This document shows positions 10,690 through 63,500 of a stretch of DNA of 64,000 nucleotides, piece after piece. The position numbers and the translations under genes were made by a program. The stretch comes from Azolla caroliniana. Lineage: Eukaryota; Plantae; Polypodiophyta. Location: assembly GCA_043228905.1 (NCBI GenBank), contig JBHGNT010000016.1:10478001-10542000 (forward strand). The letters are read 5' to 3'. The notes beneath the pieces were generated by a model that was not told the origin of the DNA, ran no database searches, and saw nothing but the letters and a program-made list of their open reading frames with translations. The first letter of the stretch is position 1; each line of letters starts with the position of its first letter.

Positions 10690-12398
10690 GAGGCCATGTC
10701 GGCAACGAAGGAGGAGTGCGGATCCGTCATAGAGGTCCGACGATTCTTTGGAGCATGTGCCTTTTACCACATATGGATCCCTCATTACACGCACGTCACC
10801 GAACCACTCTACAACTTGCTAAAAAAGAGCAGGAAATTCAAATGGACAAAGGAACATACCGAGTCTGTCCGGAGGCTAAAACGAACGCTCGCCGCGGCAC
10901 CAGCATTGCGCAAAGCAGAATACGCACCGGGATCCCCGGTCTAAATCATGGTGGACACCAGCCCAACCGGGATCGGATGGGTCGTAAATCAAGAGGATAA
11001 AGATGGCACACGTTTCCCTATCCGGTTCGGTGCGAAGGTATGGGGTATCGTTTCAGCGGTTAAGGTCAACAAAGATTATCTAATCGCGACAGCAGTGATT
11101 ATAGAAACGGATTGCCTACCAATTCTCGGTATGGTCTCGGAGAACGAGGATGACATGGTATCGGAGAACAAAGAAGTCGGCGCGGACTTCTTAGAATCGG
11201 CAAGGATGAGGATAAAAAGGAGAAGCGCTCCGCCCCTGAACGAGTTCGACGAAGACGACTATGATGGGAAGTGGCTTCTAATCGGAAGGTTTCTAAAAAC
11301 AATGACGGCGGACCCCATGATGACTAGGGAAGAGGTGGGACAGCTCTGAAAAAGGGCATACCGGTACTTCTTACGGAACGGGAAAATTTGGAGGGTCCCA
11401 AAAAGGCAAAACGACGGGCTGCTCCGGGTAATAGCACGGGCGGATGATCAAGAGAAGCTAATATCGGAGTTGCACGAAAACCCTTGGTCTGGTCACTAGG
11501 GTACATGGGCCACATTCGAGAAGTTAAAGGAGAAATACTGGTGGCCGGGTATATATAAGAGCATGCATGACTTCGTGTCCACGTGCGAAAGCTGCCAGAT
11601 GCACTTGGTGGTTCAACACTGCGACGAGCTGCACCCAACATACCCCCCAGTTGTGCACTTCAAATGGATGGTCGACTTAGTAACGATGCCGATAGGAGAG
11701 GGTCAAAAGCGATACCTAGTGCTGGCTAGAGAGGACCTAACGAACCAGGTAGAGGGCTGAGCACTAACTAACAAGACCGCGGTAATATGTAAGTTTCTGA
11801 TCGAAGATGTCATATACCGATACGGGTGTGTCGGAAAAATCGTGGCTGACCGAGGAGAGCTAGATGCGGAATATGCCAAAGAACTTTTCAATCGGCTAGG
11901 CGTAAAACTGTCCCTCACAATGTTGTACAACCCGGAGGCAAATGGAAAGATAAAGCGGGGCCACGGTCCGATCGTAAAGGCCATTGTACGCGCGTGCAAA
12001 GGGCAAGTCGGCTACTGGCCGTGGTTGCTCCCTTACGTGATATGGGCGGATCGGACTACCCACAGTTCGGTGACAGGGTACATGCCGGCGGAACTAATGT
12101 TTGGAAAGAAACCCATCATGCTGGGTAGAATGGACGATCGCCTCGTGGACGGCGATCGATTGGGCCAACGAAATGAGCAGAGAAGAATTTCTTGTTGCGC
12201 TTAGCATATCTGTTTGCGCCTATGTCTACGCACGTTGCTCTTACACCATCTCTCTCGTTTCGCTAATTTTTTCTGTTTAAACCACGGTCTCAGGGCTATC
12301 GTAAACCACAGACTCTTCCTCCTCACTTCTCGATTCCTTGGTTCAAGACCCCCGTGGTCTTGCCCAACTTCTACGCATCCGCGAGGATTTCCTCGACA
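10690..12398 (+). mobile_element. Ty3/gypsy remnant of the Trp-PBS family: RT-RNase H junction, integrase, and LTR 3' end
   Basis: EVRRFFGACAFYHIWIPHY (same as 63570-63620), HHCC zinc finger, integrase core HFKWMVDLVTMP...VADRGE...PEANGKIKRGH. Ends GGATTTCCTCGACA like the solo LTR 59138-59876. Confidence 0.8.
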
Positions 12399-12401
12399 AC
12401 G

Positions 12402-12778
12402 TGTTGAGAGATCAAGCTCAACTTAGTTTAGTTAGTTAGTCAACACATGTAACTTAGTAGTTACCTAGATAGAATCTAGTTAGTGTGTTGACCATAAAGC
12501 CTTAAATAGGATTTTGTACTTGAGTGGGATACATTGTAGATCCACCACTCCATGCTCATTTAATATAGGACTTACACGTTGTACCTATATTCTCCTAGCA
12601 CATGTGCACCCTTGCACATGAAACCTATCTATACCTCATTGAAGGTATTTTTGTATAGTTTACTCATCCCCCATCTTGTGTTATTTCATAAGTCTCTCTC
12701 TGTCTCTCTGTCTCTCTCTTCCTCTCACACACATACACACACATATCACATAATCTTCCGCTTATTAACTTAATCACA
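12402..12778 (+). repeat. Copia-type LTR fragment
   Basis: Starts TGTTGAGAGATCAAGCTCAACTT like the E4 LTR and has a CT/CA tract. No TSD or PBS found. Confidence 0.6.
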
Positions 12779-12809
12779 TAATTAGGTACTAATTAACTCC
12801 TAATTATTT

Positions 12810-14190: not shown

Positions 14191-15399
14191 GGCTTTATGA
14201 CAAATGATGGTTCACCCTGACACTCATCGGGTCTATTAGTGTCGCGTTGTAAACTAATGACACATGCCTCGAGAGCACTTTGAGAATTCTGAAGTTTGGA
14301 CATATGATGAGTGGTTGAACTAAGGAAATTTTATATTTGTAAGAAATACGACTCAATGGAGATTGGTCCATGAGGATTTCCTTGAGTTCCTTCCGCTTGA
14401 GCAGATGACATCGGGTCGTTATTATGAGCCATTGAATGATAATTTCTGGCAAAGAAATAGATAAGGTCAAAGAAAGTCATGATATAAACATATCATGGGC
14501 CAACATTAATTGATATCATGATCTCACGTCAATACTCCTCTAGACGTATGAGATGAGGTTCAAGATCAGGTTACTATGGTAACACAAAGGTGTTTTAAAA
14601 ACCGGGGGGGTGACAAATGAATGTCTTTGCCTGATCTCTATATCAATTTTTTCATGGCGATCCCCCGAGGCTTAACTATGTATGTTCGCGTCATGAATAG
14701 TTTATACACGAAAAAAATGTTAACAATAAACTATGTTTTTGTGCCCACATATGTGGTTTTGGCTCGTTAAGTCCTATTATGCGGACCCCGAAGTGCACAT
14801 AGACCTAAAGTCTAAACACGTATTATAATCATATGTATGAACAATGTTGTATGGTCTTGGTCATATTTGAACTCGAGACCTCGAGAACAAATTTATTATA
14901 CACTTGAGCTAACCAAATAGGTTGCTCATGACTCTATTCTTGTGGTGGGTCAACTGTTGTAGCGAGCATGACGACACCAGGTACGACTCGACGTAGTCAA
15001 GAGATCATCAAATGAGGGTAGTTAGGCCTCATATTTAGAGCGAGACCCAAGGCCCCTAGGCAAGTTCACACTTGGCCTAATGGGGAGGATTAAAAGTAAT
15101 CCTCCCCTTCTTTACACTCTCGTTTAACCCTCACACTTATCCATGTGTATAGAATACTATGGTAAATTCTCACCACCGGATATTATGTGGTCATGCCCAT
15201 AACAAAGGTGTTGGACAATGGTTTGGCCTATGTGAGGGTAAAGAGCTAGGTTGGTTGGCACTCTGTTTAGTTCTTGACGGTTCGGCCTAACCACGAGAAG
15301 AACCGGGACTCTCTCGGCGGCGAAGGCAGAGAAATATTTTAGAGAGGGATATCAATGCGTGGGGCCGCGATAGTCCAGACAACCAAAAGAAACCCCACA

Positions 15400-16190
15400 T
15401 CTATACCATAGTTAGGAAATTTTGGCCCTCTGTTAATGGAGGTTGTACCATAACCGGCATCAGTGGCCGGGAAAGGAAGTGGGTCAAATGGCACTTGAAG
15501 GCATGCGGAGCTTTGGGCTCGGACATAGAGATTGGTGGCACTGTGGAGGCGGTCTCATTAGATGACACCCTCAGGGAGATTGAGAGGGTAGTCAAAGAGG
15601 ATATACGTGAAGACCGAATTATTACGGTTGGTTCGATCGATATGTATGAAGTCATCACGGACTTCGGGAGGATGGCCGGTTTGGATCGGACCGCCCGGGT
15701 GGACAGTAAGTACAAGATTGTGGACTGGAATGTGAGGCTAGTCGTGACACCCTTACCTGAGGACATCTGGGAGCGAATGAAGGTGGTTGCGACGGAACCA
15801 AGTTTACGAGATCCGGCTAGCATAGGACACTGGTTCACCAAGGAGACACCACGGAAGCTCAAGATTAGTGGGGGTGGCTTCCTACTGGCGTCGGAGGAGG
15901 AACAGTTTCGGAGAATGCTCAAAAGCCACGACTAGGCCTTTGTATTCTCACTGGAGGAGATCAGATGCGTCGACCCAAAAATCATAGAACCGATGGTGAT
16001 CTTCATGGCACCACATGTGCTGTGAAGTCTCAAACCGATTTTGGTACTGAGGGCTCTCATACCGAAGTTGATGGAGCTTCTCAAGACGAAAGTGAAGATG
16101 GGAATCCTCAAACCATCGAGTGCTCCTTATTCGAATTAGTAGTTTACGGTGCCAAAGAAACGCTTTATACAGGGCCTGGAACCAATCAAC
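15400..16190 (+). pseudogene. Gypsy pol remnant (pre-RT/RT start), Trp-PBS family
   Basis: GGGFLLASEEEQFRRML...EPMVIFMAPHV...LKPSSAPYSN, homologous to 62700-62990. Confidence 0.75.
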
Positions 16191-17200: not shown

Positions 17201-17220
17201 ACAGTGGCTTCTAACGGATG

Positions 17221-27537: not shown

Positions 27538-28380
27538 TTTGTATAAAGATAATGGCGCCATGTTTTGAGCGCATGTATAACTACAAATAATTCCTTTTCT
27601 TAAACTGTATACGGAGATTGAGCAAAATTAGGTTTCTTACTCTCGAATGCTATTGGTTTACCATCTTGATATAAGATAGCACATACAACATAATCGCTTG
27701 CATTAGTTTCAACCTCAAAAGGTTTTGAAGGATCAGGTAAAAGAAGCGAAGGAGCCTTGCACACCAGGTCCTTGAGTTCCTTAAAGGCGACGTCTAATGT
27801 AGCATGCCACACAATAGGTTTTGTAGACATACGCATTTGACCTTTTAGAAGATCAGTAAATGACGTCGTCAATTCAAAGTAATTATGAAGGGATTTTCGC
27901 AAAAACCCGACAAAACCAAGGAATGATCGAACTTTGGACCACTCTTGCATCGAGAAAATCCCTTGCATTCCTTGATTTTCTCGATGCAAGAACGATCAAT
28001 TTCAACTCCTCGTTCAGTTATGAGATGTCCAAGATAAGTAATAGATTTCTTGAAGAACTCTCATTTTGAGATCTTTGCGTAGAATTGCTTGTTGCGCAAT
28101 GTTTGTAAAACAACGCGGACATGTTTAGCATGTTCTTCTCATGTACGAGTATAAACTAAAATATTATCTAAGAAAATAACGACAAATTTTATCAAATTGA
28201 TCTTGGAAAATGTCATTCATTTATTGTTGAAAACTGGCCGGAGCATTGGTCAAACCAAATGGCATAACCAAACACTGATAACGGCCGTAACGTTGTCGCG
28301 TGGCACGTGACACACTTGCCAAACATCGGGATGTGCGCATCACAAGCGCGGACAAGCACCGGGCCTCTATCCGCTAGTGG

Positions 28381-29070
28381 TTATGGCGGATTGACGATGG
28401 GATTTCCGTGCCTACGGGTCGGTCGAACGGGACCACCAAGGTCTTTGACCGGGGAGAAAGAATCGGGTAAGTTGTGCCTGTAAGGAATTGGCCGTTTAGG
28501 TTTATTGTCGAGTCGTTCTTTGTGGCACGTTTGTTCACGATCACATCCTTGACTATCTTGGCCATTCCCCCCAAACGCATGTTCTTTGTTCCATGTCTCG
28601 TCATTATCGCATCCTTCTCTATCTTCCCTCTTGAGTTCACGTTCTTCGTCACATGTTTCTCCTTTGTTGAGTTTGCATCGATCCTCGTAACGACCATAGG
28701 CATGTCGATCTCGATCTCTCTCTTCAAATACTTGTTCTTCATCACATGTCTCTTCATGACCGTAGCTACGCCAATCTCGATCATCTTCATCATCGTCACC
28801 GTCGAGCAAACCATAAAAAGGTTGAGGCCCAAATCTTGACGTCAGAACCGCTTCGTACCAATCCGGAATTTCTGGATACAGTCTTTTGACTTGCCTTGCC
28901 AAGTTGAGATACTCCAACGCTCTATCCTTATCATCATGAAACATTATTTCGATGGCCTTCCTTACAAATAGAAGCAACATGAGCCTCAGACCACCTTCTA
29001 TTCTTATTGATTCCTCTAAGTCGTATACATCCAAGATCACATCCATCATTCGTGATGCCCCCATTACCAC
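28381..29070 (-). CDS. 229-aa ORF: divergent gag-like N-terminus plus acidic ETCDEE repeats, reading into the LTR remnant
   Basis: Starts just downstream of the PBS, in the gag position. Weak similarity by eye to the gags at 37163 and 61178. Confidence 0.45.
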   Translation of the reverse strand: MVMGASRMMDVILDVYDLEESIRIEGGLRLMLLLFVRKAIEIMFHDDKDRALEYLNLARQVKRLYPEIPDWYEAVLTSRFGPQPFYGLLDGDDDEDDRDWRSYGHEETCDEEQVFEERDRDRHAYGRYEDRCKLNKGETCDEERELKREDREGCDNDETWNKEHAFGGNGQDSQGCDREQTCHKERLDNKPKRPIPYRHNLPDSFSPVKDLGGPVRPTRRHGNPIVNPP

Positions 29071-29079
29071 CTTGTGTTG

Positions 29080-29097
29080 TTCACGTCAGGTTCACCA
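29080..29097 (-). promoter_or_regulatory. PBS complementary to tRNA-Trp
   Basis: TGGTGAACCTGACGTGAA, one mismatch to the complement of the plant tRNA-Trp 3' end TTCACGTCGGGTTCACCA (recalled sequence). Confidence 0.8.
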
Positions 29098-29475
29098 AAT
29101 AGATGTTGCGTGGCATGTGACACACATGCCAAACGTCAGGATGTGCGCGTCACAAGCGCGGACAAACACCGGGCCTCTATCCGCTAGTGGTTATGGAGGA
29201 TTGACGATGGGATTTCCGCGCCTACGGGTTGGTCGAACGGGACCACCAAGGTCTTTGACCGGGGAGAACGAATTGGGTGAGTTGTGCCTATAAGGTTTAT
29301 CTTCGAGTCGTTCTTTGTTGTCGAAGACACCCGAACCCGACTCAACGGTGCGCTGGATTGACGTGTAGGCAACTGAAGTAATGCACTAATGTGGTTGAGA
29401 GTGTGTGAGAGAGAGAAACGAAAATTGAGGAAGTGTTTTAGATAGATAAATAGACGACGGATTGAAATTCCAATT

Positions 29476-29533
29476 CTAGGTTTGAACCCTTGACTTTAAT
29501 TTAGAGAAACAAGACACATCACCAATAGGATAA
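29476..29533 (-). promoter_or_regulatory. tRNA-like Pol III A/B-box module in LTR, sense to the element
   Basis: Reverse complement TATCCTATTGG...GGGTTCAAACCT with tRNA-like spacing. Conserved at 59284-59337. Confidence 0.5.
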
Positions 29534-29811
29534 TTAGGTTTTCTTTTTAAAATGTCTTTATTTAATCCATAGCTTGCTTGATACATAGCTTGTTCGATTT
29601 ATCAATCGATTCCCACTTATATAGATGCCCCCATGCATATGTGCATGTGAGGGTGTAAGACATGTATACAATGCATGAAATGCATGTGATGCATGATTGC
29701 CATTTGGCGCTCATGCATCACATGTGGTGCATGATGACCATGTACCTCATCCAAGCTCTCATGTATGAGCATTCATATATGAAAAACATAATGATGATCT
29801 AAAGAAATAAC

Positions 29812-29872
29812 TTAGCCTAGTGGTAAGTCAGGTTTGTCCTATCTTGGAGGTGCAAGGTTCAATACTTGCACC
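29812..29872 (+). promoter_or_regulatory. tRNA-like Pol III A/B-box module in LTR U3, antisense to the element
   Basis: A box TAGCCTAGTGG, B box GGTTCAATAC in the stem GGTGCAAG/CTTGCACC, starts 43 nt apart. Conserved at 59568-59620. Confidence 0.6.
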
Positions 29873-31039
29873 CTTTCGTATGCTTGAAAATGCAAATAGG
29901 GTTTTGGTGTTCTCATAACATTTATATTTACAACATGCTAACGTATGAGAGTAACGATCACCCCTTTCATTTGTGTTCATATTACACCTTCTTGATTCCA
30001 CGCGATTTTCACACCATTGCCGAAAATCTGCACGACAACGCGTACAGAATGTCGTTTTAGGAACATCGTCCTCGCTTATACGAATTTGATAGTAGCCCAT
30101 ACGAAGATCAAGTTTCCTAAAAAACCAAGCTCCCTAGAGACTGTCAATTAGATTGTTGGCCCGGGGCATGGATATGAATTCTTTATCGTCACTTTATTCA
30201 GGCGTCGGTAATTAATACACATACGCCATGTGCCCTCTTTCTTTTTTACCAAGAGAATAGCTCCACCACATGGAAATTTACTATGACGTATATAAGCCAT
30301 TCGTAAATAGTCCTTTAGCTACTTAGATACCTCATCCTCTTCGGATCGACTTAAGAGATAAGGAGGTATACTTATTGGTGCAATGCCAGGTACAATATGT
30401 ATACGATGTTCTATATTATTTTTAGGAGGTAACTCATGTGGTAGTTCACTCAGAAAAACATCACGAAAATCATTTAGGATTTTATCGAGTTGTTGTTATT
30501 CAAAATATGATAATGGAACCGAGACATTATCGATATAGTAAACGTGAATGTCCGGATCAAGTACACAATAAAATAAAGTAGAACAAGAAAACTCGGATAT
30601 TGATGGCAAGGAAACAATCGAAAGATAGTGTTTTTTAACACATTGAATAAAATGACTACAATTGTTCAGTACAACAGTAATTGCATGATGAACCCAATGA
30701 ATTGATAAAAAAGAGTTTTCATTAAAAAACCATGGATAACCCAAGATTACATCACTGGTACAAAGATTCATTACATGGAAGTCTACTTCCTCTATATAAG
30801 TATCAATAGAAATTCCTAATGAATGAATCGCCCCGTTGATGTATTGTACTATTCCATCAGCCAAGTGCACCCTATAGGTGTGATCACTTACAGTGGGTTG
30901 AATTCCCCATATCTGAACCAAACGATCATTGACAAAATTGTGTGAGCTTCCTGAATCAAATAAAAATTCACATCCATTGATATACTCGTTTGTAGGTGGC
31001 GGCCTTACTCCCTAGTTCTCGGCCAACATATGCAATCTT

Positions 31040-33809
31040 TAGGCTTACCCCCTGGAGCTCAAACCGGGACTTTTCCCACACCTATTCTAGAGACTTCGGT
31101 GGCTGGCCCCAAGAGCCCACGTGAGACCGGAGAGACGGAAGATGGTGGCGGCAAAGCGGACGATCGAAACGACGGTAAGGAAGGTCATAGCGGACGGAGG
31201 AGAGACCCCTCGATACCAGGGCCGGAGACTATGACGGTTGCGTTCGAATGCCAACATAAGACTGGAGAGAAGGGCGGTGGCCGTGAGGTGGCGTGGCCCG
31301 GAGTGAACACGTACGAAGATAAGGATGCGAGGCCCAAAACAGGCATTTACGAGAGGACCGATGGAGAGGTCGGGAGCGGCAAAGAGGACAGAGTCGGGAA
31401 CTGACCCGACCGGAAGATGAACCGGTCGATAATCCGACACGACCGGAAGACAACGCGTGTAAGAAGATTGGAGTGGGGTCCGGTCAACTGGGCCCGAACC
31501 GAAGAAGAGACGGCAAGGCCGGATTTGTTCAGACAAACATGTACCGGCCGGTTACGATTACGGAAGGGAGCCGACCAAACCGGAACTCGATCGGCCGAGA
31601 CCAATTCGGGCGAAGGCTAAGTCGGCATGATTGGAGGTTGAGGCGAATGAGCCACAACACCCAGTGGGAGCCGGTGAGCGCAAGAAGGAGGCCAAGCATG
31701 CACAAGGAGTACGACTCGGTGGGAGACCAAGAGCGAGAGGGACCCTCCACACCTATTCTTGAGACTTTGGCGGTTGCGGATCGACGTAAGACCAAAGAGA
31801 CAACGGATGGCGACGAGGAGTCGGAGACCAGAACGGACGAGGCTACCGGAACGGGTACCCGGTGCGTGAAGGCAGATGAGCACGGCCAAGACGGCAAGCC
31901 GGAGTCAGTCGGGACTACGGCGGGAGAAGCGTGTAACACGAAGCATGCATTACGGCATAGAACGGAGCATGCACTACAGCTGACGAAGGGCCAAGAAGCA
32001 AACATGCACCCTGAAGAGCGGCAACGAGTGACCGGCAACGGCAGACCAGTCGAGCCTTTGAGAGGCAAGCACGCGGCAAGAGACGGAGCGGTGAGTTGCC
32101 GGGATTGGCGGATGAACAACGAGGGCGGAGGATGGTGCGTGGAGAGCAAAGAACTACGCATCGGGGAGAGAAAAAGCGTCGTCCCGGAGGACGTGCAAGG
32201 CCAAGCGGACCAAGAGGATGCGAGTTGGGATGAAGCGGTAACGAGAGCCACGAAGAACCCCGACACGAAGGTCGGGATGACGATACGCTCTACTACGAGA
32301 GAGCATGGAGAGCAAGGGAGAATCGGGGTGCGCGTAATGGGGTCACCTAAGGACCAAAGAATGAGCGTGCATTTGGAGGAGCCGCAACGAGTGATTGACG
32401 ATGACGGTCGGAAGAAGCCTTCGAGAGGCAAGCGCGGGACAACGGACGGTGCGACGAGACGCCAAGATCGACGGAACGAGACGGGCATGATCGGCATGAA
32501 CGAAGGATTGTGTCTAGGAAAACGGAGGGGATGCGCGGAGAACAACGGGGTACACACCGGGAAGAGAAAATGTGGCGGCTTCCCGGAGGGCATGCAAGGC
32601 CAAGCGGGCCAAGAGGGCCAAGAGGGCACAAGTCGAGGCGAGGCGGTAACGAGAGCCTCGAGGGACACCGACACGGAGGTCAGGTTGATGGTACGCTCTA
32701 CGGCAAGAGAGCACGACGGGCAAAGGAGAGGCAAGGAACGCGGAATGGGGTCGCCTAAGGGCCAAAGAATGAGCGCATATTCGGGAGACAACAAGGGCGC
32801 ATGGAAAGAGCCTACGAAAGGTGAGCGCGGAGCGGAGGGAATCTGCACGAGGTGTTCGAGACGAAGAGAAGATCGAGCCGGAGATAGAACACAAGCGGTA
32901 CGCGAGGGGCGCAATCCGGCGAGCAAACGGGGTGACCAAGGGCCTAATCGAAGGACCTACGTGGCGGACAAAGAAAGAGTGACTGGATCGGCAATGACGT
33001 TCGGGAGGACCGACCGGGGAGGAAGGTGCGTGCGGTGGATATGGTGGTTCGGATGGAGTCGATGTTTCGGGGACACATGGTGCACGTGGTGGATCGGTTG
33101 GAGCCTTCGGCTCGAGGACGTGCGACGGATACAGTGGAACGGGATGCTACAACGGTTCGTGTGGAAGGGACAGGCATGCTCGAAATGGAAAACGAAGCCG
33201 AGCAAGGCCAATGAGGACACGGTGGACCTTGGTTTTATCACCATGGTCAAAAAATCTCGCCTCTTCTCCTTTCTTGGCACATACCGGTGGATGTGCGGTT
33301 TGGTGGGGGCGGATGTCGTGAAGATTTTCGTCCATAGGCGGAAACCAGGGTGGAATAGGCAAATCGGTGTATAGAAATGGTGTATAGAAATAAGAGGGGA
33401 AATTCTATCCCACATTGTAAGGTTCCTCCCTCCTTGGGCTATAAAAGGAAGGGAGGGGTCACTTATGAAGGGGTTGCCTATTTTGAGGGAGAGAGGCATA
33501 CCACTTAGGTCGAGGGTTTCCTATTCGGTTTTAGGGTTTCGGTTAGGGTTTTCTTCTTGGGTTTTCCTTTAGGGTTTTTCGGATAGTCGTTTGGTGCGGC
33601 CATGGCGGCCACCATTGTAAAGCGTTTATGTTTCCTTAAACTAACTTGTTGAGTATCTTGCCTCCGTCTATTCTGTGTTATTGCCTTATTCTCTCTCTTC
33701 TCCTCTTGAGCTAAGCCTCCATATCCTATCTTATTCTTTCTCCTCTACTCCCTAGTCAGAGACCCCGTGGTCCCGCCCCTTCTACATGCATGCGCGTAGC
33801 AACGTGACA
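31040..33809 (+). mobile_element. 3' part of a Trp-family gypsy element: purine-rich internal region, PPT, 3' LTR 33314-33809
   Basis: PPT-like TGGTGGGGGCGGA then TGTCGTGAAGATTTTC...CAACGTGACA, with TATAAAA at ~33440. The internal region shares motifs with 38230-38530 and 59880-60525. Confidence 0.75.
31473..33374 (+). other. 633-codon low-complexity ORF (465-codon ORF on the opposite strand) in the element's 3' internal region; coding status unproven
   Basis: From the ORF track. Internal repeat PEDVQGQADQE...MGSPKDQRMS / PEGMQGQAGQE...MGSPKGQRMS. The T-poor strand makes chance ORFs more likely. Confidence 0.3.
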
Positions 33810-36155
33810 CCGAACTGTACCGGCAGCCAAAGATCTTTGACCACAAGCATGTCCCTCATCTTCGACTTCCACACTGAATAGTTGGAGACGGTGAACTTGA
33901 ACATGCTTTCGAATGACTCTTCCATCTATTGGTCACTTTGATACTAGATTGTGTGGAATAGTGCTCGGCCACAACCGAGCTAAACACTCAATGGAAGATC
34001 AAAACAAAAGTGGAGATTAATACACTTACATAGTCAATAGAGAGGACACATGATGTTTATGCCAGTATGACGATCGATACTGACGTGATGATAGGCATCG
34101 TCCCGAGGAAGATCACTATCAGCTCGACAATCGGTACCAACCTGAGGAGGATCGTTATCGGCCAGACAATCAGTACTAGCCCGAGGAAGTTCGTTATCGG
34201 CCTAGGGAGGTCCGCTATCAACTAGTGGATGACTACTACTGATACGATCAGAACAAAGAGTACGACCCAAGAAATTGTTCCGACCAAAGGCACGATCGAC
34301 AGCCTCCCCAACATAACCGAGCCCAGCAGTACGTCGCACCGCACAGAGAAGAAAACCCCAGACCGTATCAAACACCTAAATTTGAGCCAAGGGAGTCAAG
34401 CAACTCGGCGCCGCTCACGTGTTTTAACTATAATCAACTAGGGCATTGTGCCACACAATGTCCGGTCAATAGCATCACGGCTGAAGTCCAACAAGTCACA
34501 ACATGAAGCAAGGCCCAACACACACCATGGAAAGTCCAAGATGAAGTCCAGCAAGCCGCGAAGGAGTGGATCGCGAAAACTAATAATACAAATGTCGACC
34601 ACATGAATACCGAAATGAAGGACATCACTATCGGCGCGTCAGCTCACTAAAAACCTACCGATGTGCTCGACGATGATTGCAGTTCACAAGCACTGACCAA
34701 TTGCCAAATATCAAGGCCCCTAATTAAGCTCCTACATTTACTCCCACGATTCAAGGATACAATGATATCCTTGACTACCGAAAAGGATTAGACAACCATG
34801 CCTGTGCCCACTGGCGAGCCACGTATAGGAACACCACTAATGGACTCCCAGAACCCGGCAATAAAGATCATTGTTCACTGTTGTATTATCAATTAAGGGC
34901 TCAATGTGATCAGCGAGGATACTTGTCGAGTTCTCAGTATTACCCAATGGGAACCATGCCCATTTTCACTCCGTATGGCGGATACACAATATGTTTGGCC
35001 GATGGGTTTAATCTGACACCTCGATTTTATTCTCAGAGACCAAACCTTCAAGATTTTGACTATGGTGTTATGACTGCATGATCCTAGCGTCTACCCGATG
35101 CTGCTCAACCGTCCCTGGTTACACACAGCCAACATTAAGTAGCACTTGTAACACAACATGATCTCGTTCCGGCGTGGGAAAACTAAGGTACGTGTCGTCA
35201 CGGAGGAGCCAATCCGCAACCCACAACATACCACTGCCCTATATGCATAAAGTGTTCACATGCTCGATGGACTTGCTGTGGTGGAGGTCAACCCGATTGT
35301 TCCGTTGTTCGACATCGACATCATAACCGTTTTCAACTCTTATGTTTCCGAGGTGGTTGGAGAAGAGCAAGCGATCGGCTGAGAGCTCGATTCAAAATTG
35401 ATCGAAGAATTATGGTATGCACGTGGTGCTCAAACACGAACTAGCCATATCTCAATGGGTGAAGGCATCCACACTAGAAAAGATTAATCTCGGTACCACC
35501 ACAGATCCGAGAACACTAAAAATAGCAAAAGAGCTTACTCCCCATGAACGCTCAGCATTGTCCGGTCTACTCACGGAATATAAGAACATCTTTGCGTGGT
35601 CATACAATGACATGAAAGACTTAGACCCAACATACTATCCACACCAGATCCATCGGAAGCATGATGCACGACCTATACAACAACGTCGTCACAGAATGAA
35701 TTCTATTTATGCACAAAATTGAAAGAGGAAATCGATAGGCTCCTTCGGGTGGGATTTATTCGGCTAGTGAAACGTGCCATGTGGTTCAGCCCCATCGTGT
35801 TCATTCCCAAGAAAAATTGAAAAATAAGGGTCGGCGTCGATTATAGGAAGCTGAACGCGGGGATCATCACCAACGCTTTCCCTCTTCCGTTTACAGATGG
35901 TGTGCTCGATACTGTGGCGGGTCATGAGCGATATAGCTTCCTAGATGGGTTCAGCGGGTATAATCAGATCCACATGCACGTTGACGACCAAGAAAAAACA
36001 ACATTTGTAACAGAATGGGGCATTTTCATCGCAATCCTGATGATGTTTAGGTTAAAAATGGCATTAGCCACATTCCAACGTATCATGGAAGAAATTTTCG
36101 ATGAGTACATTCGGGCTTCCATGCAAGTGTTCCTCAATGATTTTGCAGTTTACGG
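33810..36155 (+). pseudogene. Decayed non-chromovirus gypsy (Tat/Athila-like) protease-RT
   Basis: LEKINLG...YKNIFAWSY, VDYRKLN, YSFLDGFSGYNQI...KTTFVTEWG...ATFQR...FLNDF. Confidence 0.8.
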
Positions 36156-38530
36156 TGTCGTGAGAATACACTCCCTCTTGTAAAGATTATATAAAGATAG
36201 TGGGTGCCGAATAGGAATGATAGCCAGGCAGGATATCCCTCGAAGTGGGGGGGGGGGGGGGGGGATATTTATCCCACATTGTATCATCCTTCCCTCCTTG
36301 GACCATAAAACAGGGAGGGGTCTCTTGTAAAGGGGTTGCCCATTTTTAGGTAGGAGTGTATGCCGTTAGATTTAGGGTTGGGTAGTTTTCTCTTATTCTT
36401 ATTTTCTTAGGTTTCTACTTTGGTCTCCTTCACCCTATCTCATTTTAGCGTTTCATTTTGGCAGGTTTCTTCTTCCTCTTCTTTCTTTTGGGTGTTCTTC
36501 TTGGAATGGTAGTTTAGCGTTTCTCGGGGATCCTATCTCTCTTCTTGGTTAGGGTTTAGTCGGGTTTAGAGCTTGCATGCTCTAAGGGTTTCCGTTTGTA
36601 GTTGTGTCTCTTGTGCAAGACCCCACTCGCGTAGGCGAGCCTGAGTGCTCCTAGACTGGTGGCTTGGCGGCATACAGTTGTAGTACTTCACCAAGAAGGC
36701 CCATTTTCCGTGCAAGACTTCCACTCGTGTAGGCGAGCCTGAGTGCTCCCCGACTGGTGCTTGCATGTGGACAGTTGATGTATATGTTCTGTACTAGCAT
36801 TGTAATTTCATGGTCTTGTATATACATTCATAAGAAGTTATGCATATCTGTGTCTCTGTTGGTGTTAGGTGTCTTTCTTTCTTTCCGTTTCTATACATAA
36901 GTAACATGTGTTGAGTCGGTGTTGTGCATATGCTCTCACTCACTCTCTCCCTCTCTCCCTCTTTCTGGTTCGGTAGCATCCAGTACGCATCTGGAATTGT
37001 ACTGGCTTGTGCCACAACCGGTGCAGCCGGTTCCGGACAGAGTCGGTCTCCCGACATCCATCTCTTCCTGGTCCATGACCTTGGTGGACCTGCCCGATCT
37101 GGCACATGCACGCGGAATACCGACATCTTTGGGGAACCTGATGTGAAAGGGCAGCAAGGGAGGATGGAGTTGGAAGACGATGACTTTGCGGAGATGGTGG
37201 CTGAAGTGGTGATCGAGTTCAGACGAGTGACGATGAGACGAGAAGCAAAGCAACAAGCTGTCAAGTGTGTGGTCGAAAGAGTCGGCCATTTTAACGGGGA
37301 CAAAGTCCCATTCTACTTCGAACCCTACAACTCGGAGATGGACATCCAAAGTGTAGACGAGGCGTTCAGGCTGAAGTTCTTTTGTCGGGTCATAGGCGAC
37401 CGTATGCACACGTAAGTAAAGGAGCTTCGAGAAGAACATAGTTTGTGGGAGGCCTTCAAAGAGGCGCTCCTACAGGCACACAGAGGATGCCCGAAGAGCC
37501 GGGGACAACGAGACTTCGGCCAGTGGGTTGCATCGGCGAAGACCCACCAGGGCGCAACGAAGGCGTTCCTAGAGTTCAGACGACACTTTGCTTGGCTCCC
37601 GGACCGGGAACAAAGACTGGTGGGGGTGGACAAATTCCTGCTATTCATTAGGTTGATCGACCAAGCGGAACGGGAGGCCATCAGAATGGAGCTCGAAGAT
37701 GACGATGGAGCGAATGGCCTTACCGAGGACTGGTCGAAAGTTGGACGAGTATGCCAATGGTTGGATTAAGAGCGGTCTGCTAAAGGAAAAGGGAAGATGA
37801 CATGTGGCGGCGCATTATCAGAGCAGGGAGTGGGCGCACAACGAGATGGAATAGTGAAGATCAATGTCGAGGCCCTGGTCCGGGAAGCGTACGATGCTCT
37901 TATAGCGATGGTCAAGGAAGACGAGAGATCCGGGGCGCAGTCGGATTCCGGACATCTAGAGCTAATCGGCCTTCTGAACGAGACGGATGTGGCCCATGCG
38001 GAGGTAGTATGACGCTACGATGGTACCACGGGAGAGGGTGTGGAACAAGTCACCCTCTCAGCTTGCGGAGAAACACCGACCAAGGATAAGGTTGGATTTG
38101 GGGAGATAATGATCGCGGTTTCGGATAGAGACCGATGGGTTCAGGCACCACTGCCTGAAACTATGGACTTTGGAGAGGCAAGCCCAAGTTGGGCTTGTGC
38201 GATCGGAGAAGAGATAGCTTCCACCTACCCCATCTAAGAAGAGTCGGTGGCTATAGACAAGTTGTTGGATGCCATACATACGAAATCGTTCCCTACATCG
38301 TTTCCGGAGACTTCGGCAGTTCGGCCAATGTCGCAACGTGAGACCGGAGAGATGGAAGGCGGCAACAAGGAGTCCTGGCACGATGCCAGCGAAGATGCAT
38401 TGGAGATGGCTTGCGAGGAGGCCAAGGATGGAGTCGTGGTGGAGCGAAAGAAAGAGGTGAGCGGCGATGCCGAAAAGGGCGGAGCTGGGAGTCAACCTGA
38501 TCGGGAGTCGATCCGGTCAGCACTCCGATT
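36156..38530 (+). mobile_element. Trp-PBS gypsy 5' part: LTR 36156-37125, PBS 37130-37147, decayed gag ~37163-37770, low-complexity tail
   Basis: TGTCG...CCGACA termini, PBS TGGGGAACCTGATGTGAA, gag VGHFNGDKV...LELEDDDG-type motif...LTEDW homologous to the 61178 gag. Confidence 0.8.
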
Positions 38531-50539: not shown

Positions 50540-50541
50540 GT

Positions 50542-50553: not shown

Positions 50554-50639
50554 TGGGTGCCTGTCTGGTCTTTTCTCTCCCTCTTCCTTCTGTCTCCCTC
50601 CTTTCCTACTAGTCTCTTATTTCCCTTTTCCTTCATCCC

Positions 50640-54800: not shown

Positions 54801-55393
54801 GTTTGGAGCGGTTACGCAAGATACAAGCGGATTTATCTACTCAACTCCAGCAAGCTCAACAATCACACAAGGACTACGCAGATCGTCATCGACTTCCATC
54901 CAGTTTTAACATTGGAGATTGGGTGTGGCTGCTACGACGACACATCAAGACTACTCGCCCATGTGAGAAGTTGGATTATCGGCGATTAGGTCCTTTCCGT
55001 ATTATCGGGAAGATTAATGATGTCGCTTTTCGTCTCGAGCTACCTCCGCAACTTCAGATACATCCGGTGTTTCATAGTTCTCTCCTCGAACCCTATCACG
55101 AGAGCACTATCCCAGGACGTACTATACAACCACCACCTCCTATCGAGCTCGAAGATGGACCTGAGTATGAGGTCGCTGCCATCCTCGATTCCAAGATTGT
55201 TCGCAACAAGCTCTACTATCTAGTCGATTGGCTAGGATATAGTCCCAGCGAGCGTACTTGGGAACCGATCGAGAATGTGACCAATGCTCGTGCTCTTCTA
55301 GAAGACTTCCATCGACGATATCTCGAGAAACCGGGTCCTCAATCCAAAACGACTCGTGGAACTCGTCGTTTTAAAGGGGGGATAGTGTCATAA
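51782..55393 (+). CDS. pol: Pol polyprotein (protease-RT-RNase H-integrase-chromodomain), likely expressed by -1 frameshift
   Basis: Frame is open from 51782. LLDSGA, YLDD, EADASDF, HHCC, DDE core, GPF, chromodomain EYEVAAILDS...YLVDWLGY...TWEP. Confidence 0.96.
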   Translation, partial: PIRRRVKRLSPAKIGAVWLDSPRSVQPISGSIPSKQVSDVFVAQVAVSTKSTPPVHTLALLDSGANSCFMDRNFSRAHQISLRKLPCPASIVVIDGRPIASGNIIEESEPVNIVLDNLTCVVSFNIISIPEHPIVLGLPWFELHNPDIDWRTREIRLRQTQGSTQKVATISLHQLREEGRKEEMFLFAISVQPSSTTKEESTVQLPEKYRQYVDVFDKVQANTLPHHRPYDCAIDLQPGKEPPWGPIYNLSPTELEVLRAYIEENLENGFIRHSKSPAGAPIFFVKKKDGSLRLVVDYRGLNKVTVRNRYALPLISSLLERINGARFFTKIDLRGAYNLVRIRPGDEWKTAFRTRYGHFEYTVMPFGLTNAPAVFQHMANDIFRDLLDDFLIIYLDDLLVYSKTQEEHDSHVLLVLKRLREHGLYAKLEKCSFGCNQVEFLGYVISSEGISMDPAKVKTVIEWHTPRSVRDVQCFLGFANFYRKFIQNYSKIVLPLTQLTRKGQSFIWSKETDMAFESLKKAFTSAPILGHVDPEKPFIIEADASDFALGSILSQQGNDEKLHPVAFHSRKFDAAEINYEIHDKELLAIVDSFMQWRHFLEGSPHQVTVFSDHKNLAYFQDARVLNRRQARWAHFLTRFDFKITYRPGKHQGKADALSRRSYLTPRPGEPAFDNQKQVILGPARLQAAQVFDMPVDSDITNTIREDLKTDAFAQAILAQIDPSRASCSQSQSPGTDYRQFKYCDGLLFFKELLYVPNGSCRLRVVQNCHDTYTAGHFGSTKTLDLVQRSFWWPRMRQFVEDFVRTCDTCCRAKMPRHHPYGLLEPLPIPSKPWQSIALDFITDLPVSKGFSAILTVVDRYTKMAHFLPCTKEISSEDTAEIVMREVCRHHGLPDNIINDRGPQFVSKFWKHLFKMLKVTCNLSSGYHPQTDGQAERTNQTLEQYLRCFLNYHQNDWADILQFAEFAYNNTIHASTKVTPFYAYTGYHPWWCVLETPEVSTNPCAEDRLERLRKIQADLSTQLQQAQQSHKDYADRHRLPSSFNIGDWVWLLRRHIKTTRPCEKLDYRRLGPFRIIGKINDVAFRLELPPQLQIHPVFHSSLLEPYHESTIPGRTIQPPPPIELEDGPEYEVAAILDSKIVRNKLYYLVDWLGYSPSERTWEPIENVTNARALLEDFHRRYLEKPGPQSKTTRGTRRFKGGIVS
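51797..51850 (+). promoter_or_regulatory. -1 ribosomal frameshift signal
   Basis: G TTA AAC heptamer in the gag frame, 6-nt spacer, 11-bp stem GTCCAGCCAAA/TTTGGTTGGAC. Loop TAGG can pair with downstream CCTA. Confidence 0.8.
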
Positions 55394-55843
55394 CTAGACT
55401 CGAACCCATAACCTTTTGTTACACGGGTCGAGACTTTACCATTAGGTTATGAATTGTAATTTGAAGGATATTATTTTCATTTAGGTTTTATTGGGAAATT
55501 GATGTATATTCCAGATTTCTCTGGAACATTCTAGAAACTTCAGGAGTATTCCTGAAGACACTATAAAAGGAGGCGCAAGGCATTAGTTCGAACCAAATCG
55601 GTTCAACGCCAGTCTTAAGCCTTCTAACTACTGTTGTATATCTTCCTTCATATAATACATATATCTTTCGCATCATCATTCTCTCTCTCTCTCTCTCTCT
55701 CTCTCACTCACTCATTCCTTCTCTCAAAAGTTCGACACCTCTCATAGTACTAATCCTTCTCTGTCTTAGTACTATTCCCCAACAATAGTACTAATCCTTC
55801 TTTTAGTACTAATTCCTTCTCTGCCTTAATAGAGTTCCTGACA
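55386..55843 (+). repeat. 3' LTR of intact chromovirus
   Basis: Direct repeat of 50084-50539. Confidence 0.97.
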
Positions 55844-58549: not shown

Positions 58550-60525
58550 ACACCAATTGGGCCAATAGGGCGAAGAAGGCATTAAGGAGGGGACCGACTC
58601 GGGAGTTGGGGAAAATGTGTGGTGACCCGAAGAAATACACAATGAAGAGCGGAACAAGATGCGTGCAATATGTCTGTGTAAGGGCCAAGTAACGAGCACA
58701 AAGGGGATCGATTGCGATGAGGAGTCAAAAGGTGTTCGACGTGCAGCGGTGATGGATCGAGGGAGCGGTTGGGTCGAAAAAGGTAGGGACAAGGTGCGAT
58801 ACCCGACATGCGGTCGGGAAGAACGGGAACCCGTGCCGCACATGGATATGAAGAGGCTAGAGAGCGGTACATTGGTACCACGGGAGAGGGTGCGGATCGA
58901 GCCACCCTCTCGACATGCGGAGAAAGAACGACCAGGGACAAGGTCGAGGCCGGAGATGCGATGATCACGTTCGGGAAGGGACGAACATGTCCAAAATGTC
59001 GATTCGGGATAGGCAAGCAAGGTCGAAGCTTGTGTGGAAGAGATAGCCATGGGCCGCGACGTCGAGCGAAAGTAGCTATGGACAGAGGCTGGGTAGGTGA
59101 TCCTACGACGATCTTCACACCGATCCAGAGATTCCAATGTCGAGGAAATCCTCGTGTGTTCGTGAAATGAAGCGGGACCACCGAGGTCCTGGACCGGAAG
59201 GATTCGATGTTTTTAGCAGCGTAACCGAGAAAGTATTGAAGATAGATAGATGGATGAAGAGAGAGAGAGAGAGATTGAGATAGAGATTGAACCCGTGACT
59301 TTAGTTTTATGAGACAAGATACATCACCATTAGGATAACTCCGATCTTTGATTAAAAGTTTCTTTTTTACTTACATCACTTGCCTCCCCTACACAAGCCC
59401 AACTATAGACTTTATAGGTCTGTCCATGCAAAAACCATGGGCTAAAACCACGAGCTGAAACCATGGGCTAAAACCATGGTTTTGTGCCCACTTTTTCTAT
59501 ATGTTTGCTTCCTACAAAATACTGAATATTAAAAGAAAATATACAAATTCTAAAGCACTTAGTAGTGTCTTTAGTGGTAAGTTAATTTGTCTCTTATCAT
59601 GGAGGTGCAAGGTTCAAGTCTTTTTTTTACCCCTATGTATGCACTTAAGTGTTACTAGGCTTTAGTCTTATTTTTATATTACAATTGAGCGCACATCACA
59701 CGTGCTCATGTTTAACTTTACATCTAGCTTTTCTTTTACGATTCTCATTTCGGTCCTATTTACAACATGCTAGCGTATGCGTGTGACCTTCACCCCTTTC
59801 ACATGTGGACATTGCACCTTCTCAATTTCGTTCGTTGCACACAATTTTCACATCGTTGCTGAAAATCTTCATGACACCGGTAGTCAGCCCGAGAGCCGGC
59901 GTGAGACCTAGAGAGATGGACGGTGGCGGCAGGTGAATGAAATCTTAAGATGTGATTTTACAGAGATCTACTCACTAATCCGAAGACTCCGCTGATCCGG
60001 CCCGAGAGCCGACGTGAGAACGACACAGATGTACGGTGGTGGTAGGTGAACGGGATCCTACTATGTGGTGAAATGTGAATGAGCAATCCTACGATGATCC
60101 TCAGACCGATCCCGAGACTCCGACGGTCCGGCCTAAGAGCCGACGTGAGACCAGGAGAGATGGATGGTGGCGGCAGGTGAACGGGATCCGACAAAGCAAG
60201 GACTGCAAGAGCAGAAAGAGGTATAAGGCCGGTGATGTGGCCATGAACCGGAAATGGACCCGATCGGCATGGTCAGAAGAACGAAGGATGGACGCGCAAG
60301 GTGCACGGGTCGTAGGCCTCAAAAGACAGAAGGCTCGAGAGGGATCCTCCACACCGGTTCTAGAGACCTCAGCATTTCGACTATCATGGCAACGTAAGAC
60401 TGAAGAAATGGAAGGTGGCGGTGATGGGACGAAGGCAGTAGCAACGGAGGCACCGAGCAACCAAGGTATCGCGAGGACAACGGAGGCCAAACGGGCCGAA
60501 ACGGACAAGGGTGATCCCTATACGG
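58550..60525 (+). mobile_element. Purine-rich internal region of a Trp-family element with degenerate ~110-125-bp tandem units, split by a solo LTR
   Basis: GTTGEGADRATLSTCGE is homologous to ~38025-38090. CCCGAGAGCC..CGTGAGA..GGTGGCGGCAGGTGAA recurs at ~59888, 60001 and 60132. Confidence 0.6.
59138..59876 (-). mobile_element. Solo LTR of the Trp-PBS gypsy family
   Basis: TGTCGAGG...CATGACA termini, homologous in blocks to 29104-30037. Flanks CCAA/CCGG fit a deaminated 4-bp TSD. Confidence 0.8.
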
Positions 60526-63500
60526 TGTCGTGGAGAAAACCGTCCCTAGGAGGAATTGGCCGATAGTTTTCGTGAACCGGCCCTTACACACGGGCACGTA
60601 TTTGATGTATCACATAGTACAAGTCGGCGATGTAATTATCCTATGTAGCACGAATTCTTTAAGTAGGAGGATCTCTATCCAAAAGGACAGGGAATAACAG
60701 TGATTTCACGGTCTGTAAACGGCTCTCTCTCCGTGTGCTATAAAGGGAGGGGAAGAAGAGCTGAGTGAGGATTGTACGTTTTGAGAGGACGAAGTGTTGT
60801 CTGACTGGGAACCGAGCTCTCTCCTCCACCATCGTTATTGGTTCTGCAAGGATTTTGGGTTAAGTTGGCTGCTTTTGCTACGTGAAAGCCCGTGTGCTTC
60901 CGGTAGAGGCTCCACTGCGTATTTCAATGTATGTGTTCATCTGTGTTGAGTCTGTCACTGGCTTACCGGTTGTAACATTGCAAGCTCTGTATTCTATACT
61001 GATTTGGAATTGATTCTCTCGTTTCTATCTCTCTGTGTTTTCTGTGAATCTCTCTCCCTCTCATCTCTCACGCTCCTCGGATTAGGGCCCCCATGGTCCC
61101 GCCTTATTTCATACGCGAAAGCGTAACAACATGACATTAATTTGGTGAAGCCGACATGAAACAAGGTAGTAGAGGAATTGAAAATGAGGGGATCAGAGTT
61201 CGTTGAAGCCATGGCAGCGGTAGTCGATCGGATAGTAAGTGCTCGCGAGGGCACGGGCGCCCTCGACAATGCCATTGAAACAATTGTCGGCACAATAGGT
61301 CAGTTCGATGGGAAGGACGCCACGAGTTATTTGGTGGCCTACAAAGCCAAAATGGTGATGAGGGACATCCCGAAGGAGAGGCGTTTGGCTGCATTTCCCC
61401 GGGTAGCAACACCGGGCATCCATGGAGAGGTGCTCGAGGTGCATGTTGGATGCTGGACCTGGGGGGAATTCGAAGTGCGGCTCCTTGAGTGGTACGGGCT
61501 TGATGACATGCTTCGGTTATTGAAGGGGGACTTTATGGATTGGGTAGAGACCCCAGGAAAGGGGAGGAATGCGTTGGCGCTCCTCCAGGAGTTCGAGGAA
61601 CGCTTCGCATGTCTTTCGGCACTAGATAGGACCGTGCTGGACACAAGCCATGTCCGTTTATTCGTCAAAGCTGTGGACGTGCGGGATCGGGAGCAAGTGG
61701 GTCTCCTGCTGGAGACGGACGATGGGTTGACGGTTGACTGGGCCGTGGTAAAAGAGGTCTGCGGCCGTTTCGAAAAACGGCGTGAGTGGGTCGACAAGGG
61801 CTCATGGGGGCAGGAGCGGTTGCGACAAGAAACCTTGAGGGACCCCCGCCGGCGCGCATGGAGGAAACCCGGGATTGGCTTGAGACAGGTCCGTCCGGTG
61901 TGGTCAAAGGCCAGTCCGGCGGAGCAGCTCTGGAAGAACGGACGTAGATGGGACGAGACCTCCAGATTGCACAAGCGAGGAGGGACGACAGCGAGCAGCC
62001 TCGCGACCGAAGACCTCCAGGTGGCTATCGGTGCTTGTGGTGTGACGCGGTCTGTCACGTCCGGAAGGACTGTGTGGACTTCGCGGAAGCAATAAGGGCT
62101 AATGTGGTGTACCTATGGAATGGGAGGGTGCACGCTAGGGAGACCCGGAGAGCCCTAGACCTGAATATCGGACAGGGAGGAATGAGGAGATTGATGGAAA
62201 AAGCGGCGGCGCGCCAGGCGAAGACAATCCACTACTCCGCGTTGGCAAGAATCCGGGTTCTGGCCGGTGGTGCTAGAAGGCGTCGCTGGCGTGCGGTTGA
62301 GAAGGGAGGAAGCGGACCGTGCGGAAAGACGGGTCCGGGAGGTCACCAGGTGGAGCGATCCGGTCGAAGAAAAGACCGGCTTTGTGGAAGCCGTGTGCTA
62401 GAACTACGAGGTTTTGGTAGAAGACAAGTGTGCGGGAAAGGCCGGAGGGGCCGGACCCTCGCAGGGGTATGAGACCTGGTTCAGGCCAAAGCAGAATGAC
62501 GCCGGTGCTGTCGGCACACTGAATAAAGCAAAGAAAGCCGGTTACCAGTTGAGCACCGAGATAGAAAGAACAAGGGACCTGCGGAAGGTCCTTGAGGAAC
62601 GAATCCTCGACAGCAAGGTGGAGTTGTTGCTGAGGGAAGTTCTTGGGATCCGGCCGACATAGGACACCGGTTCACCAACATAACGCTACGGGAGCTCAAG
62701 GTTGGTGGGGGTGGCTTTCAACTACTGGCGGAGGAGGAACGATTTCTGAGAATGCTTGGGAGGCACGGGAAGGCCTTCGCATTCTCGCCAAAAGAGATCG
62801 GATGCATGGACCCAACGGTCGTTGAGCCGATGATTATTTTTATGGTACCACATGTGTCATGGAATCTCAAACCGATTCCAGTACCCAGAGCTCACATCCC
62901 GAAGCTGCTGAAGCACAAGGTGGAGATCGGCATCCTCAAACCATCGAGTGCCCCATACTCGAATCTGTGGTTTACTGTGCCTAAGAAGAACGGCATGTTG
63001 CGCTTCATTCAGAACCTGCAGCTGGTCAATAAAGTGACCATTCGAAACGCAAGAGTCGGACCAATGATCAACGAGGTTTTAGAGGCCTTCGCCGGGAGGT
63101 CGATCTATTCGGTCGGGGATCTATACTCAGGGCATGACCAGTTCCAACTAGCCGAGGAGAGTAGGGATGTCTCAACGATGCGGACGTCTCTCGGCTTAGT
63201 GCTGACAAACTCAGTGGCGCACATGGTGAATGCGATGAACAAGGTGTTGAGGGACTACATCCCGAACATCACCATGCCATTTCTGGATGATATACCGATA
63301 AAGGGGTGCCCGGTGGAGGATAAGGATGAAACGGTTGGGCTGGACGGATGCTGGAGATTCATGGCGTACCACATTGACGACTGCGCGAAGGTACTATAAA
63401 GACTAGAGGGTGCGCGGCTCACCCTCTCCGGAGAGAAGTCGGCTTTCGGGTAGTCAGAGATCCTTGTGGTCGGTCACCTATGCGGGCCTTACGGCCGGAA

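What the first reader, a model, noticed from the sequence alone, without database searches (positions are those of the whole stretch)
12398..60526. Gypsy family with 4-bp TSD and apparent CpG-centred target site (6 of 6 insertions)
Seen: the 4-mers abutting LTR termini are ACG(T) 12399, ACGT/ACGC 28290 and 30038, CCGA 33810, ACGG 36152, CCAA/CCGG 59134 and 59877, and ACGG 60522. Each insertion has CG at positions 2-3 on at least one side, and two share TACGG. A 4-bp duplication restores the host RT frame at 28294-30037 and the host repeat unit at 59138-59876. All other elements with a TSD here have 5-bp TSDs without this bias. Inference: the integrase is sequence-specific, possibly methyl-CpG-directed, steering insertion into other transposons.
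Basis: partly seen in the sequence, partly recalled or inferred. Interest (0 to 1): 0.72.

Follow-up and report, generated by a model that had tools for sequence, protein, structure and literature searches.

The report
Phygy retrotransposons insert at CG sites
A very abundant group of plant jumping genes in this genome inserts almost only into four-base sites with CG in the middle, a habit already published for the moss Phygy lineage to which it likely belongs, and its integrase likely reads the CG sequence itself rather than a methyl mark.

Summary

All 17 resolved young elements, chosen by pol ORF length and not by flank, have NCGN at the 5' end; 15 have perfect 4-bp duplications. Genome-wide, 3195 LTR 5' termini have CG at flank positions 2-3, about 85-87% of host flanks, against 3.7% background and 1 of 55 for a Copia control. 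Most TG/CA exceptions are later C-to-T decay: 12 of 15 keep CG in the partner copy. The preference is [ACG]CG[CGT], ACGT best.

The six window insertions are several families of one non-chromovirus Ty3/gypsy lineage: tRNA-Trp primer site, no chromodomain, relatives in Physcomitrium, Riccia and Adiantum. Neumann et al. 2019 report 4-bp NCGN duplications and tRNA-Trp priming for Phygy.

Methyl-direction is unsupported. Insertions lie in repeats (79%) no more than random CG sites do (81%), and the integrase shows no recognised methyl-reader. CG targeting does tilt insertions towards repeats (57% at random positions), passively. Two searches of this scan's notes found no earlier report.

The parts
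10690..12398 (+). Insertion A: RNase H-integrase remnant joined to a truncated 3' LTR ending ...CCTCGACA; 5' end not seen
   Evidence: tblastn to young pol 64% over aa 477-1011; terminus
12399..12402 (+). Flank of A, ACGT; the T is also the first base of a Copia-type LTR (TGTTGAG at 12402)
28290..28293 (+). Left TSD copy of B, ACGT (C-to-T from ACGC, in a CHG context)
28294..30037 (-). Insertion B: internally deleted element; 5' LTR 30037-29104, primer site 29097-29080, 3' LTR remnant 28523-28294; sits in the RT of a dead gypsy element
30038..30041 (+). Right TSD copy of B, ACGC
31065..33809 (+). Insertion C: 3' part of a non-autonomous member; polypurine tract, then 3' LTR 33314-33809; 5' end lost
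   Evidence: 77-83% to non-autonomous L192
33810..33813 (+). Flank of C, CCGA
36152..36155 (+). Flank of D, ACGG, just after the FLND motif of a different gypsy RT
36156..38095 (+). Insertion D: 5' LTR to about 37125, degenerate primer site 37130-37147, gag remnant; resembles non-autonomous members; 3' end not seen
   Evidence: its exact 5' terminus is unique in the genome
59134..59137 (+). Left TSD copy of E, CCAA (two G-to-A changes from CCGG)
59138..59876 (-). Insertion E: solo LTR inside the internal repeats of a non-autonomous member of the same lineage
59877..59880 (+). Right TSD copy of E, CCGG
60522..60525 (+). Flank of F, ACGG
60526..64000 (+). Insertion F: 5' LTR 60526-61136, primer site about 61143-61160, gag 61148-62617, pol from 62590; runs off the window
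   Evidence: gag 64-72% and pol 77% to young copy L065
50084..55843 (+). Control, not part of the lineage: intact chromodomain-bearing gypsy element with 5-bp TSD GTTGC

Best explanation
These are insertions of a non-chromovirus Ty3/gypsy lineage, likely Phygy, that make a 4-bp duplication centred on CG, and the integrase likely selects the site by reading DNA sequence and bendability directly, without needing methylation. Shown: 4-bp duplication; target [ACG]CG[CGT] with ACGT best; C-to-T decay of the duplicated CG after insertion; insertion sites distributed like CG sites in general. Inferred: as in the 4-bp-stagger foamy-virus intasome, the target is kinked at a central pyrimidine-purine step and T is excluded at the first position. 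Inferred: this lineage adds base-specific contacts that narrow the step to CG; candidates are the conserved basic loop ...RKFARRW of the SH3-like C-terminal domain and the conserved D-R-G-E-L after the second catalytic Asp. Because CG is concentrated in GC-rich transposon DNA in this genome, nesting follows passively.
For: Unbiased young set: 17 of 17 resolved elements (20 fetched) have NCGN, 15 with perfect 4-bp pairs. Genome counts at one terminal pattern: NCG 3195; second base not C 298 (first 100: 70 TG, 7 TA, 9 other, 14 element-internal); NCW 353 (first 100: 56 CA, 3 CT, 41 internal). Copia control: 1 of 55 host flanks. First 100 NCG flanks: ACGT 31; T first or A last in only 4, against 53% of background CG sites. 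TG/CA flanks: 12 of 15 resolved pairs keep CG on the other side, and these elements are older (median LTR identity 95.4 vs 98.4%, p=0.001). Empty-site joints skip element + 4. Repeat context: insertions 67 of 85 (79%), random CG 244 of 300 (81%), random positions 172 of 300 (57%). The integrase has NTD, core and SH3-like domains only; best matches are foamy-virus and Ty3 integrases. Retroviruses with 4-bp TSDs select central YR and disfavour T/A at the TSD edges (PMC4422553 passages). Drosophila ZAM integrase made in bacteria binds CGCGCG oligonucleotides (PMC2527525 passages). Phygy features: PMC6317226; P. patens relatives.
Against: No methylome and no biochemistry, so methyl-independence is inferred only. 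If nearly all CGs in this genome are methylated, the repeat test cannot separate the models. The background rests on 20 regions (200 kb) with wide intervals (random CG 69-90%, insertions 69-88%, random positions 42-73%), and the repeat library was my own fetched loci. Insertions into the lineage's own DNA are somewhat more frequent (28%) than for random CG (13%) or [ACG]CG[CGT] sites (20%). Bendability alone does not explain CG over TA or CA/TG, and the candidate residues are untested. No reference Phygy RT or integrase was available for a tree.
Confidence: 0.75

Rival explanations
1. The integrase, or a host partner, prefers methylated CG and so actively directs the element into silenced transposon DNA.
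For: The target centre is the plant CG-methylation site. Duplicated CGs decay C-to-T, so the sites are likely methylated at least after insertion. All six window insertions and 79% of sampled ones lie in repeats. An arginine-rich loop could in principle sense 5mC (recalled principle, not tested).
Against: No excess of repeat context or CG density over random CG sites (79 vs 81%; 10.2 vs 10.4 CG per 200 bases). TA and TG, whose T carries the same 5-methyl group, are rarely used at insertion (TA about 0.6% of host flanks; concordant TG/TG or CA/CA in 2-3 of 15 resolved pairs). No chromodomain, MBD or SRA family hit. Decay in the TSD (about 4% per strand) is close to that of a CG inside the element (3 of 57 changed), so it says nothing about the state before insertion.
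Confidence: 0.13
2. Sequence readout fixes the CG, but a separate chromatin or self-tethering cue chooses the region, for example near other copies of the lineage or in heterochromatin.
For: Own-lineage hosts in 24 of 85 insertions against 13-20% of background sites. Phygy is reported enriched at liverwort centromeres (PMC12885004 passages) and often nested in Tcn1 in P. patens (PMC6911290 passages).
Against: The overall repeat fraction is not raised. The sample is biased to loci I fetched, many on contig C1. Selection against insertions near genes would give the same pattern.
Confidence: 0.1
3. The CG bias is an artefact of local composition, of terminal-motif choice, or of misplaced LTR ends (really a 5-bp TSD).
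For: The window is CG-rich (observed/expected 0.92); neither two-ended window copy has a perfect duplication.
Against: Background CG 3.7%; Copia control 1 of 55; LTR ends fixed by paired-LTR alignment; empty-site joints skip element + 4.
Confidence: 0.01

Closest known systems
Phygy lineage (non-chromovirus Ty3/gypsy; Neumann et al. 2019, PMC6317226: passages and Additional file 5 read; Additional files 1 and 3 too large to read)
   Same: 4-bp TSD, NCGN target, tRNA-Trp primer site, no chromodomain or extra RNase H, coding region filling the interior; gag-protease and pol N-terminus match P. patens proteins.
   Different: Host not identified: 22 large contigs, and P. patens proteins match at only 38-71%. 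One autonomous family is 6.9-7.3 kb, below the published 7.7-10.0 kb (another is 8.0-8.1 kb). Non-autonomous gag-only members of 3.7-5.7 kb. The target resolves here to [ACG]CG[CGT] rather than NCGN.
TatI (PMC6317226, Additional file 5)
   Same: 4-bp TSD and tRNA-Trp primer site.
   Different: TatI carries an extra archaeal-type RNase H (100%) and no target preference is reported; no such domain is detected here.
Drosophila ZAM (PMC2527525, passages)
   Same: LTR element with a CG-containing palindromic target (CGCGCg) and a 4-bp TSD (PMC3276498 table); integrase binds the target directly.
   Different: Different lineage and host; longer target; needs a second binding site; host lacks CG methylation (recalled).
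Prototype foamy virus intasome (PMC4422553, passages)
   Same: Closest solved integrase; 4-bp TSD, central YR step, T/A disfavoured at the TSD edges.
   Different: PFV preference is weak and not restricted to CG; identity is only about 20%.

Membership tests
Phygy | 4-bp TSD | tested here: met
   15 of 17 perfect in the unbiased set; 11 of 13 resolved in the second terminal type; joints skip element + 4
Phygy | NCGN target motif | tested here: met
   17 of 17; 3195 genome termini
Phygy | Primer site complementary to tRNA-Trp | tested here: met
   PBS after 5' LTRs; its complement lies in 63 genome places, and 6 of 6 scanned are tRNA-Trp(CCA) genes
Phygy | No chromodomain and no extra (archaeal) RNase H; order RT-RH-INT | tested here: met
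   Pfam on 3 intact pol ORFs; the model ends in an SH3-like domain and a disordered tail
Phygy | Coding sequence spans nearly the whole interior, no extra ORF | tested here: met
   gag and pol ORFs run from the primer site to about 75 bases before the 3' LTR
Phygy | Length 7656-9968 bp | tested here: inconclusive
   7968 and 8064 bp for one family, mostly 6.9-7.3 kb for the other
Phygy | Clusters with reference Phygy RT-RH-INT in a tree | not testable with these tools
   REXdb sequence file too large to read. Indirect: 31 of 120 hits to gag-protease are P. patens proteins; they match this pol N-terminus (up to 57% over 119 aa) and not the window's chromovirus. They are not labelled Phygy.
TatI | Extra archaeal-type RNase H domain | tested here: not met
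   Single RNase H region, no second RNase H family hit
Chromoviruses (Tcn1, Galadriel and others) | Chromodomain at the integrase C-terminus | tested here: not met
   None; the window's own chromovirus scores 2e-14 for Chromo and is 25% identical to this pol
Methyl-CpG-directed integration | Preference for methylated over unmethylated CG | not testable with these tools
   No methylome; the indirect tests show no excess over random CG sites

The most novel reading that the evidence does not exclude
The Phygy integrase is a methyl-CpG-sensing integrase: a conserved arginine-rich loop reads 5mCG directly, with no chromodomain, so the element homes to silenced DNA across mosses, liverworts and ferns, and every insertion doubles its own target.
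Probability: 0.13. Interest if true: 0.8.

Novelty: new member of a known kind. Interest (0 to 1): 0.27.

Why it matters
The core fact (4-bp TSD, NCGN) is in print for Phygy, so this is mainly confirmation in a further genome. What it adds is modest: thousands of sites that sharpen the motif to [ACG]CG[CGT]; evidence that at least about 90-95% of insertions used CG before decay; and evidence that nesting in repeats follows passively from CG distribution. It is among the most sequence-specific plant LTR integrases (PMC6317226 names Phygy as the only exception to variable TSDs). Young intact copies make it a usable system for asking how an integrase reads bases, and whether 5mC helps or hinders. 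If methyl-sensing were shown, it would be a chromodomain-free route to heterochromatin and of real interest.

Tried and rejected
5-bp TSD or misplaced ends: rejected. Composition artefact: rejected. One single family: rejected. TatI and chromovirus membership: rejected.

Searching my fetched loci for empty sites of B and E found none; contigs gave the empty form for E and for L065. These joined forms probably come from uninterrupted paralogues of the host repeats, so they show TSD length and target, not polymorphism. A genome pattern for D's terminus matched only D, so D's family was not tested genome-wide.

Dropped before counts; 3 of 20 (two without paired LTRs, one tandem). 40 non-CG loci: 15 TG/CA pairs resolved; one AG-centred site had an unrelated partner (L130); the other 24 had no partner end in 10 kb or an uncertain one., 20 CG loci: 14 resolved, 12 perfect, 2 with C-to-T; 13 of 20 resolved, including one unrelated pair (L198). 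L077 has NCGN on both sides but different 4-mers.

The listings were tallied by hand from the first 100 rows and scaled to the totals. NCC flanks were not counted genome-wide (about 3 non-internal in 200 listed rows), hence the range 85-87%. The Fisher table used 7 where the correct count is 6 (49 of 55); I do not quote that p-value.

The Atlas search and representative search gave no usable names, so a link to the fungal Ylt1 clade (PMC2864245 passages) stays an untested lead. The wide fold search barely tested the C-terminal part, so the absence of a reader fold there is not proven. A paper search for 'NCGN' listed 30 of 93 papers, all unrelated.

Full report
Setting. The window lies on contig C16 of a 523-Mb eukaryotic assembly and consists of nested LTR retrotransposons. 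Named relatives of the elements in question come from the liverwort Riccia, the fern Adiantum and the moss Physcomitrium, so the host is likely a seed-free land plant. An earlier scan note on this genome calls it likely a fern; I did not settle this.

Observation in the window. The eight 4-mers are exactly as stated. The six insertions are: A (3' end 12398), B (28294-30037, minus strand, internally deleted), C (3' LTR 33314-33809), D (5' LTR from 36156), E (solo LTR 59138-59876, minus strand) and F (5' LTR 60526-61136, then gag and pol). Only B and E have both ends, and neither duplication is perfect. For B, the host RT flanks read ...KTTFCTR and [14 protein letters not shown], overlapping in the 4-mer. 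For E, contigs of uninterrupted related copies skip a net 743 bases (739 + 4) and have CG at the centre. The mismatches are C-to-T changes at CG or CHG. The six belong to several families: F and A resemble the 7-kb autonomous type, B and E the 8-kb type, C and D the gag-only non-autonomous type. The three other window elements whose ends I could place have 5-bp duplications without CG.

Genome-wide test. I took 20 copies chosen only for long pol ORFs. Seventeen resolved; all have NCGN at the 5' end, 15 have identical 4-mers on both sides, one differs by C-to-T, and one has two different NCGN 4-mers. For one of them, contigs join across element + 4 bases (7269 = 7265 + 4). At a shared 5'-terminal pattern, whole-genome counts are 3195 with CG at flank positions 2-3, 298 with a non-C second base and 353 with CA or CT. 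After removing element-internal junctions by hand in the first 100 rows of each listing, CG is about 85-87% of host flanks, TG and CA about 5-6% each, and TA about 0.6% (NCC not counted genome-wide). Background CG frequency is 3.7%. A Copia family treated the same way has CG at those positions in 1 of 55 host flanks. The second terminal type alone gives 49 of 55 and 11 perfect pairs of 13 resolved.

The exceptions are mostly decay. Of 40 non-CG loci fetched, 15 TG/CA sites had a resolvable partner end. Twelve keep CG on the other side, 2 are concordant (CA/CA, TG/TG) and 1 has TG on both sides with another mismatch. These elements are older than CG-flanked ones (median LTR identity 95.4 vs 98.4%, p = 0.001). 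A CG inside the element decays at a similar rate (3 of 57). So at least about 90-95% of insertions used CG (inference). The outer bases matter too: among the first 100 NCG flanks, ACGT is 31 and only 4 have T first or A last, against 53% of background CG sites. The target is [ACG]CG[CGT]. Beyond the TSD there is only a mild bias (C 37, G 9 of 85 at the adjacent base).

What the element is. Intact copies have paired LTRs of 0.6-1.2 kb, a primer site matching host tRNA-Trp(CCA), gag with DUF4100 (1 of 2 scanned), and an overlapping pol with RT, RNase H and integrase; Pfam finds no chromodomain, second RNase H, MBD or SRA. The integrase model (mean pLDDT 81, pTM 0.54) matches foamy-virus and Ty3 integrases best. 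Neumann et al. 2019 (PMC6317226; passages and Additional file 5) list Phygy as 4-bp TSD (100%), NCGN, tRNA-Trp (81%), no extra domain, 7.7-10 kb, and call it the one exception to variable TSDs. Thirty-one of 120 hits to the gag-protease region are P. patens proteins; these also match the pol N-terminus and not the window's chromovirus. I could not read the reference sequences, so tree placement is untested and one family is shorter than the published range. Membership in Phygy is likely (about 90%).

Mechanism. Retroviruses with 4-bp duplications kink the target at a central pyrimidine-purine step and disfavour T and A at the edges (PMC4422553, passages). The edge rule is seen here in extreme form. 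Bendability does not explain CG over TA, CA or TG, so base-specific contacts are inferred. Candidates are D-R-G-E-L, whose Glu aligns with PFV Ala188 and is kept in 61 of 62 aligned proteins, and the basic ...RKFARRW loop; neither is tested. ZAM integrase made in bacteria binds a CGCGCG oligonucleotide (PMC2527525, passages), a precedent for CG targeting without methylation.

Methylation and nesting. The 200 bases beside 85 CG-centred insertions hit other repeats in 79% of cases (interval 69-88%). Random CG sites do so in 81% (69-90%), random [ACG]CG[CGT] sites in 86% (74-92%) and random positions in 57% (42-73%); CG density is the same at insertions and at random CG sites. The motif therefore tilts insertions towards transposon DNA, but no further pull is visible. 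Against this: the background is 20 regions, the repeat library is my own loci, own-lineage hosts are somewhat over-represented (28% vs 13-20%), and if nearly all CGs are methylated the test is blind. Methyl-direction is unsupported, not excluded. My paper searches found no test of methyl-dependence for Phygy; most subscription journals and the two large supplements were not visible.

Verdict. A real, strong, genome-wide feature, already published for the lineage. New here: a further host genome, a sharper motif, the decay correction and a passive explanation of nesting. Interest 0.27; the methyl-sensing reading has probability about 0.13.

Noticed in passing
L191-L198, L202, L203; window 31065-33809 and 36156-38095: Non-autonomous members of 3.7-5.7 kb keep the LTR ends and tRNA-Trp primer site but only a gag remnant; two have 100% identical LTRs (L192, L194), so they likely moved recently in trans, with the same target.
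   Followed up: partly
L074 near 1999 (minus-strand view): A young copy sits directly against the 5' terminus and TSD of another copy of the lineage; each insertion duplicates its own CG target, so stacking is expected.
   Followed up: no
window 12399-12408 and L202: Two independent insertions end at ...ACG|TGTTGAG, the start of a Copia-type LTR, where the preceding bases supply a CG; a possible recurrent site.
   Followed up: no
L069 1921-9661 (minus-strand view): The 3' LTR is followed by a primer site and more internal sequence: a tandem LTR-internal-LTR-internal array.
   Followed up: no
window 25638-27538: Three exact 632-bp tandem copies inside the integrase region of a dead gypsy element; recent duplication or assembly artefact.
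   Followed up: no
window 50084-55843: Intact chromovirus (LTRs 99.6% identical, 1203-aa pol with chromodomain, 5-bp TSD GTTGC) lying between the two 99%-identical LTR-like repeats at 48620 and 57054.
   Followed up: partly
L211-L216; G000 C8 17.80-17.82 Mb and C16 4.99-5.11 Mb: Matches to the tRNA-Trp 3' arm form clusters, with about 1.2-kb spacing on C8: likely tandem tRNA-Trp gene arrays (only 6 of 63 places scanned).
   Followed up: partly
window 15201-16190: A further gag-pol junction fragment of the same lineage without recognised termini, not counted among the six.
   Followed up: no
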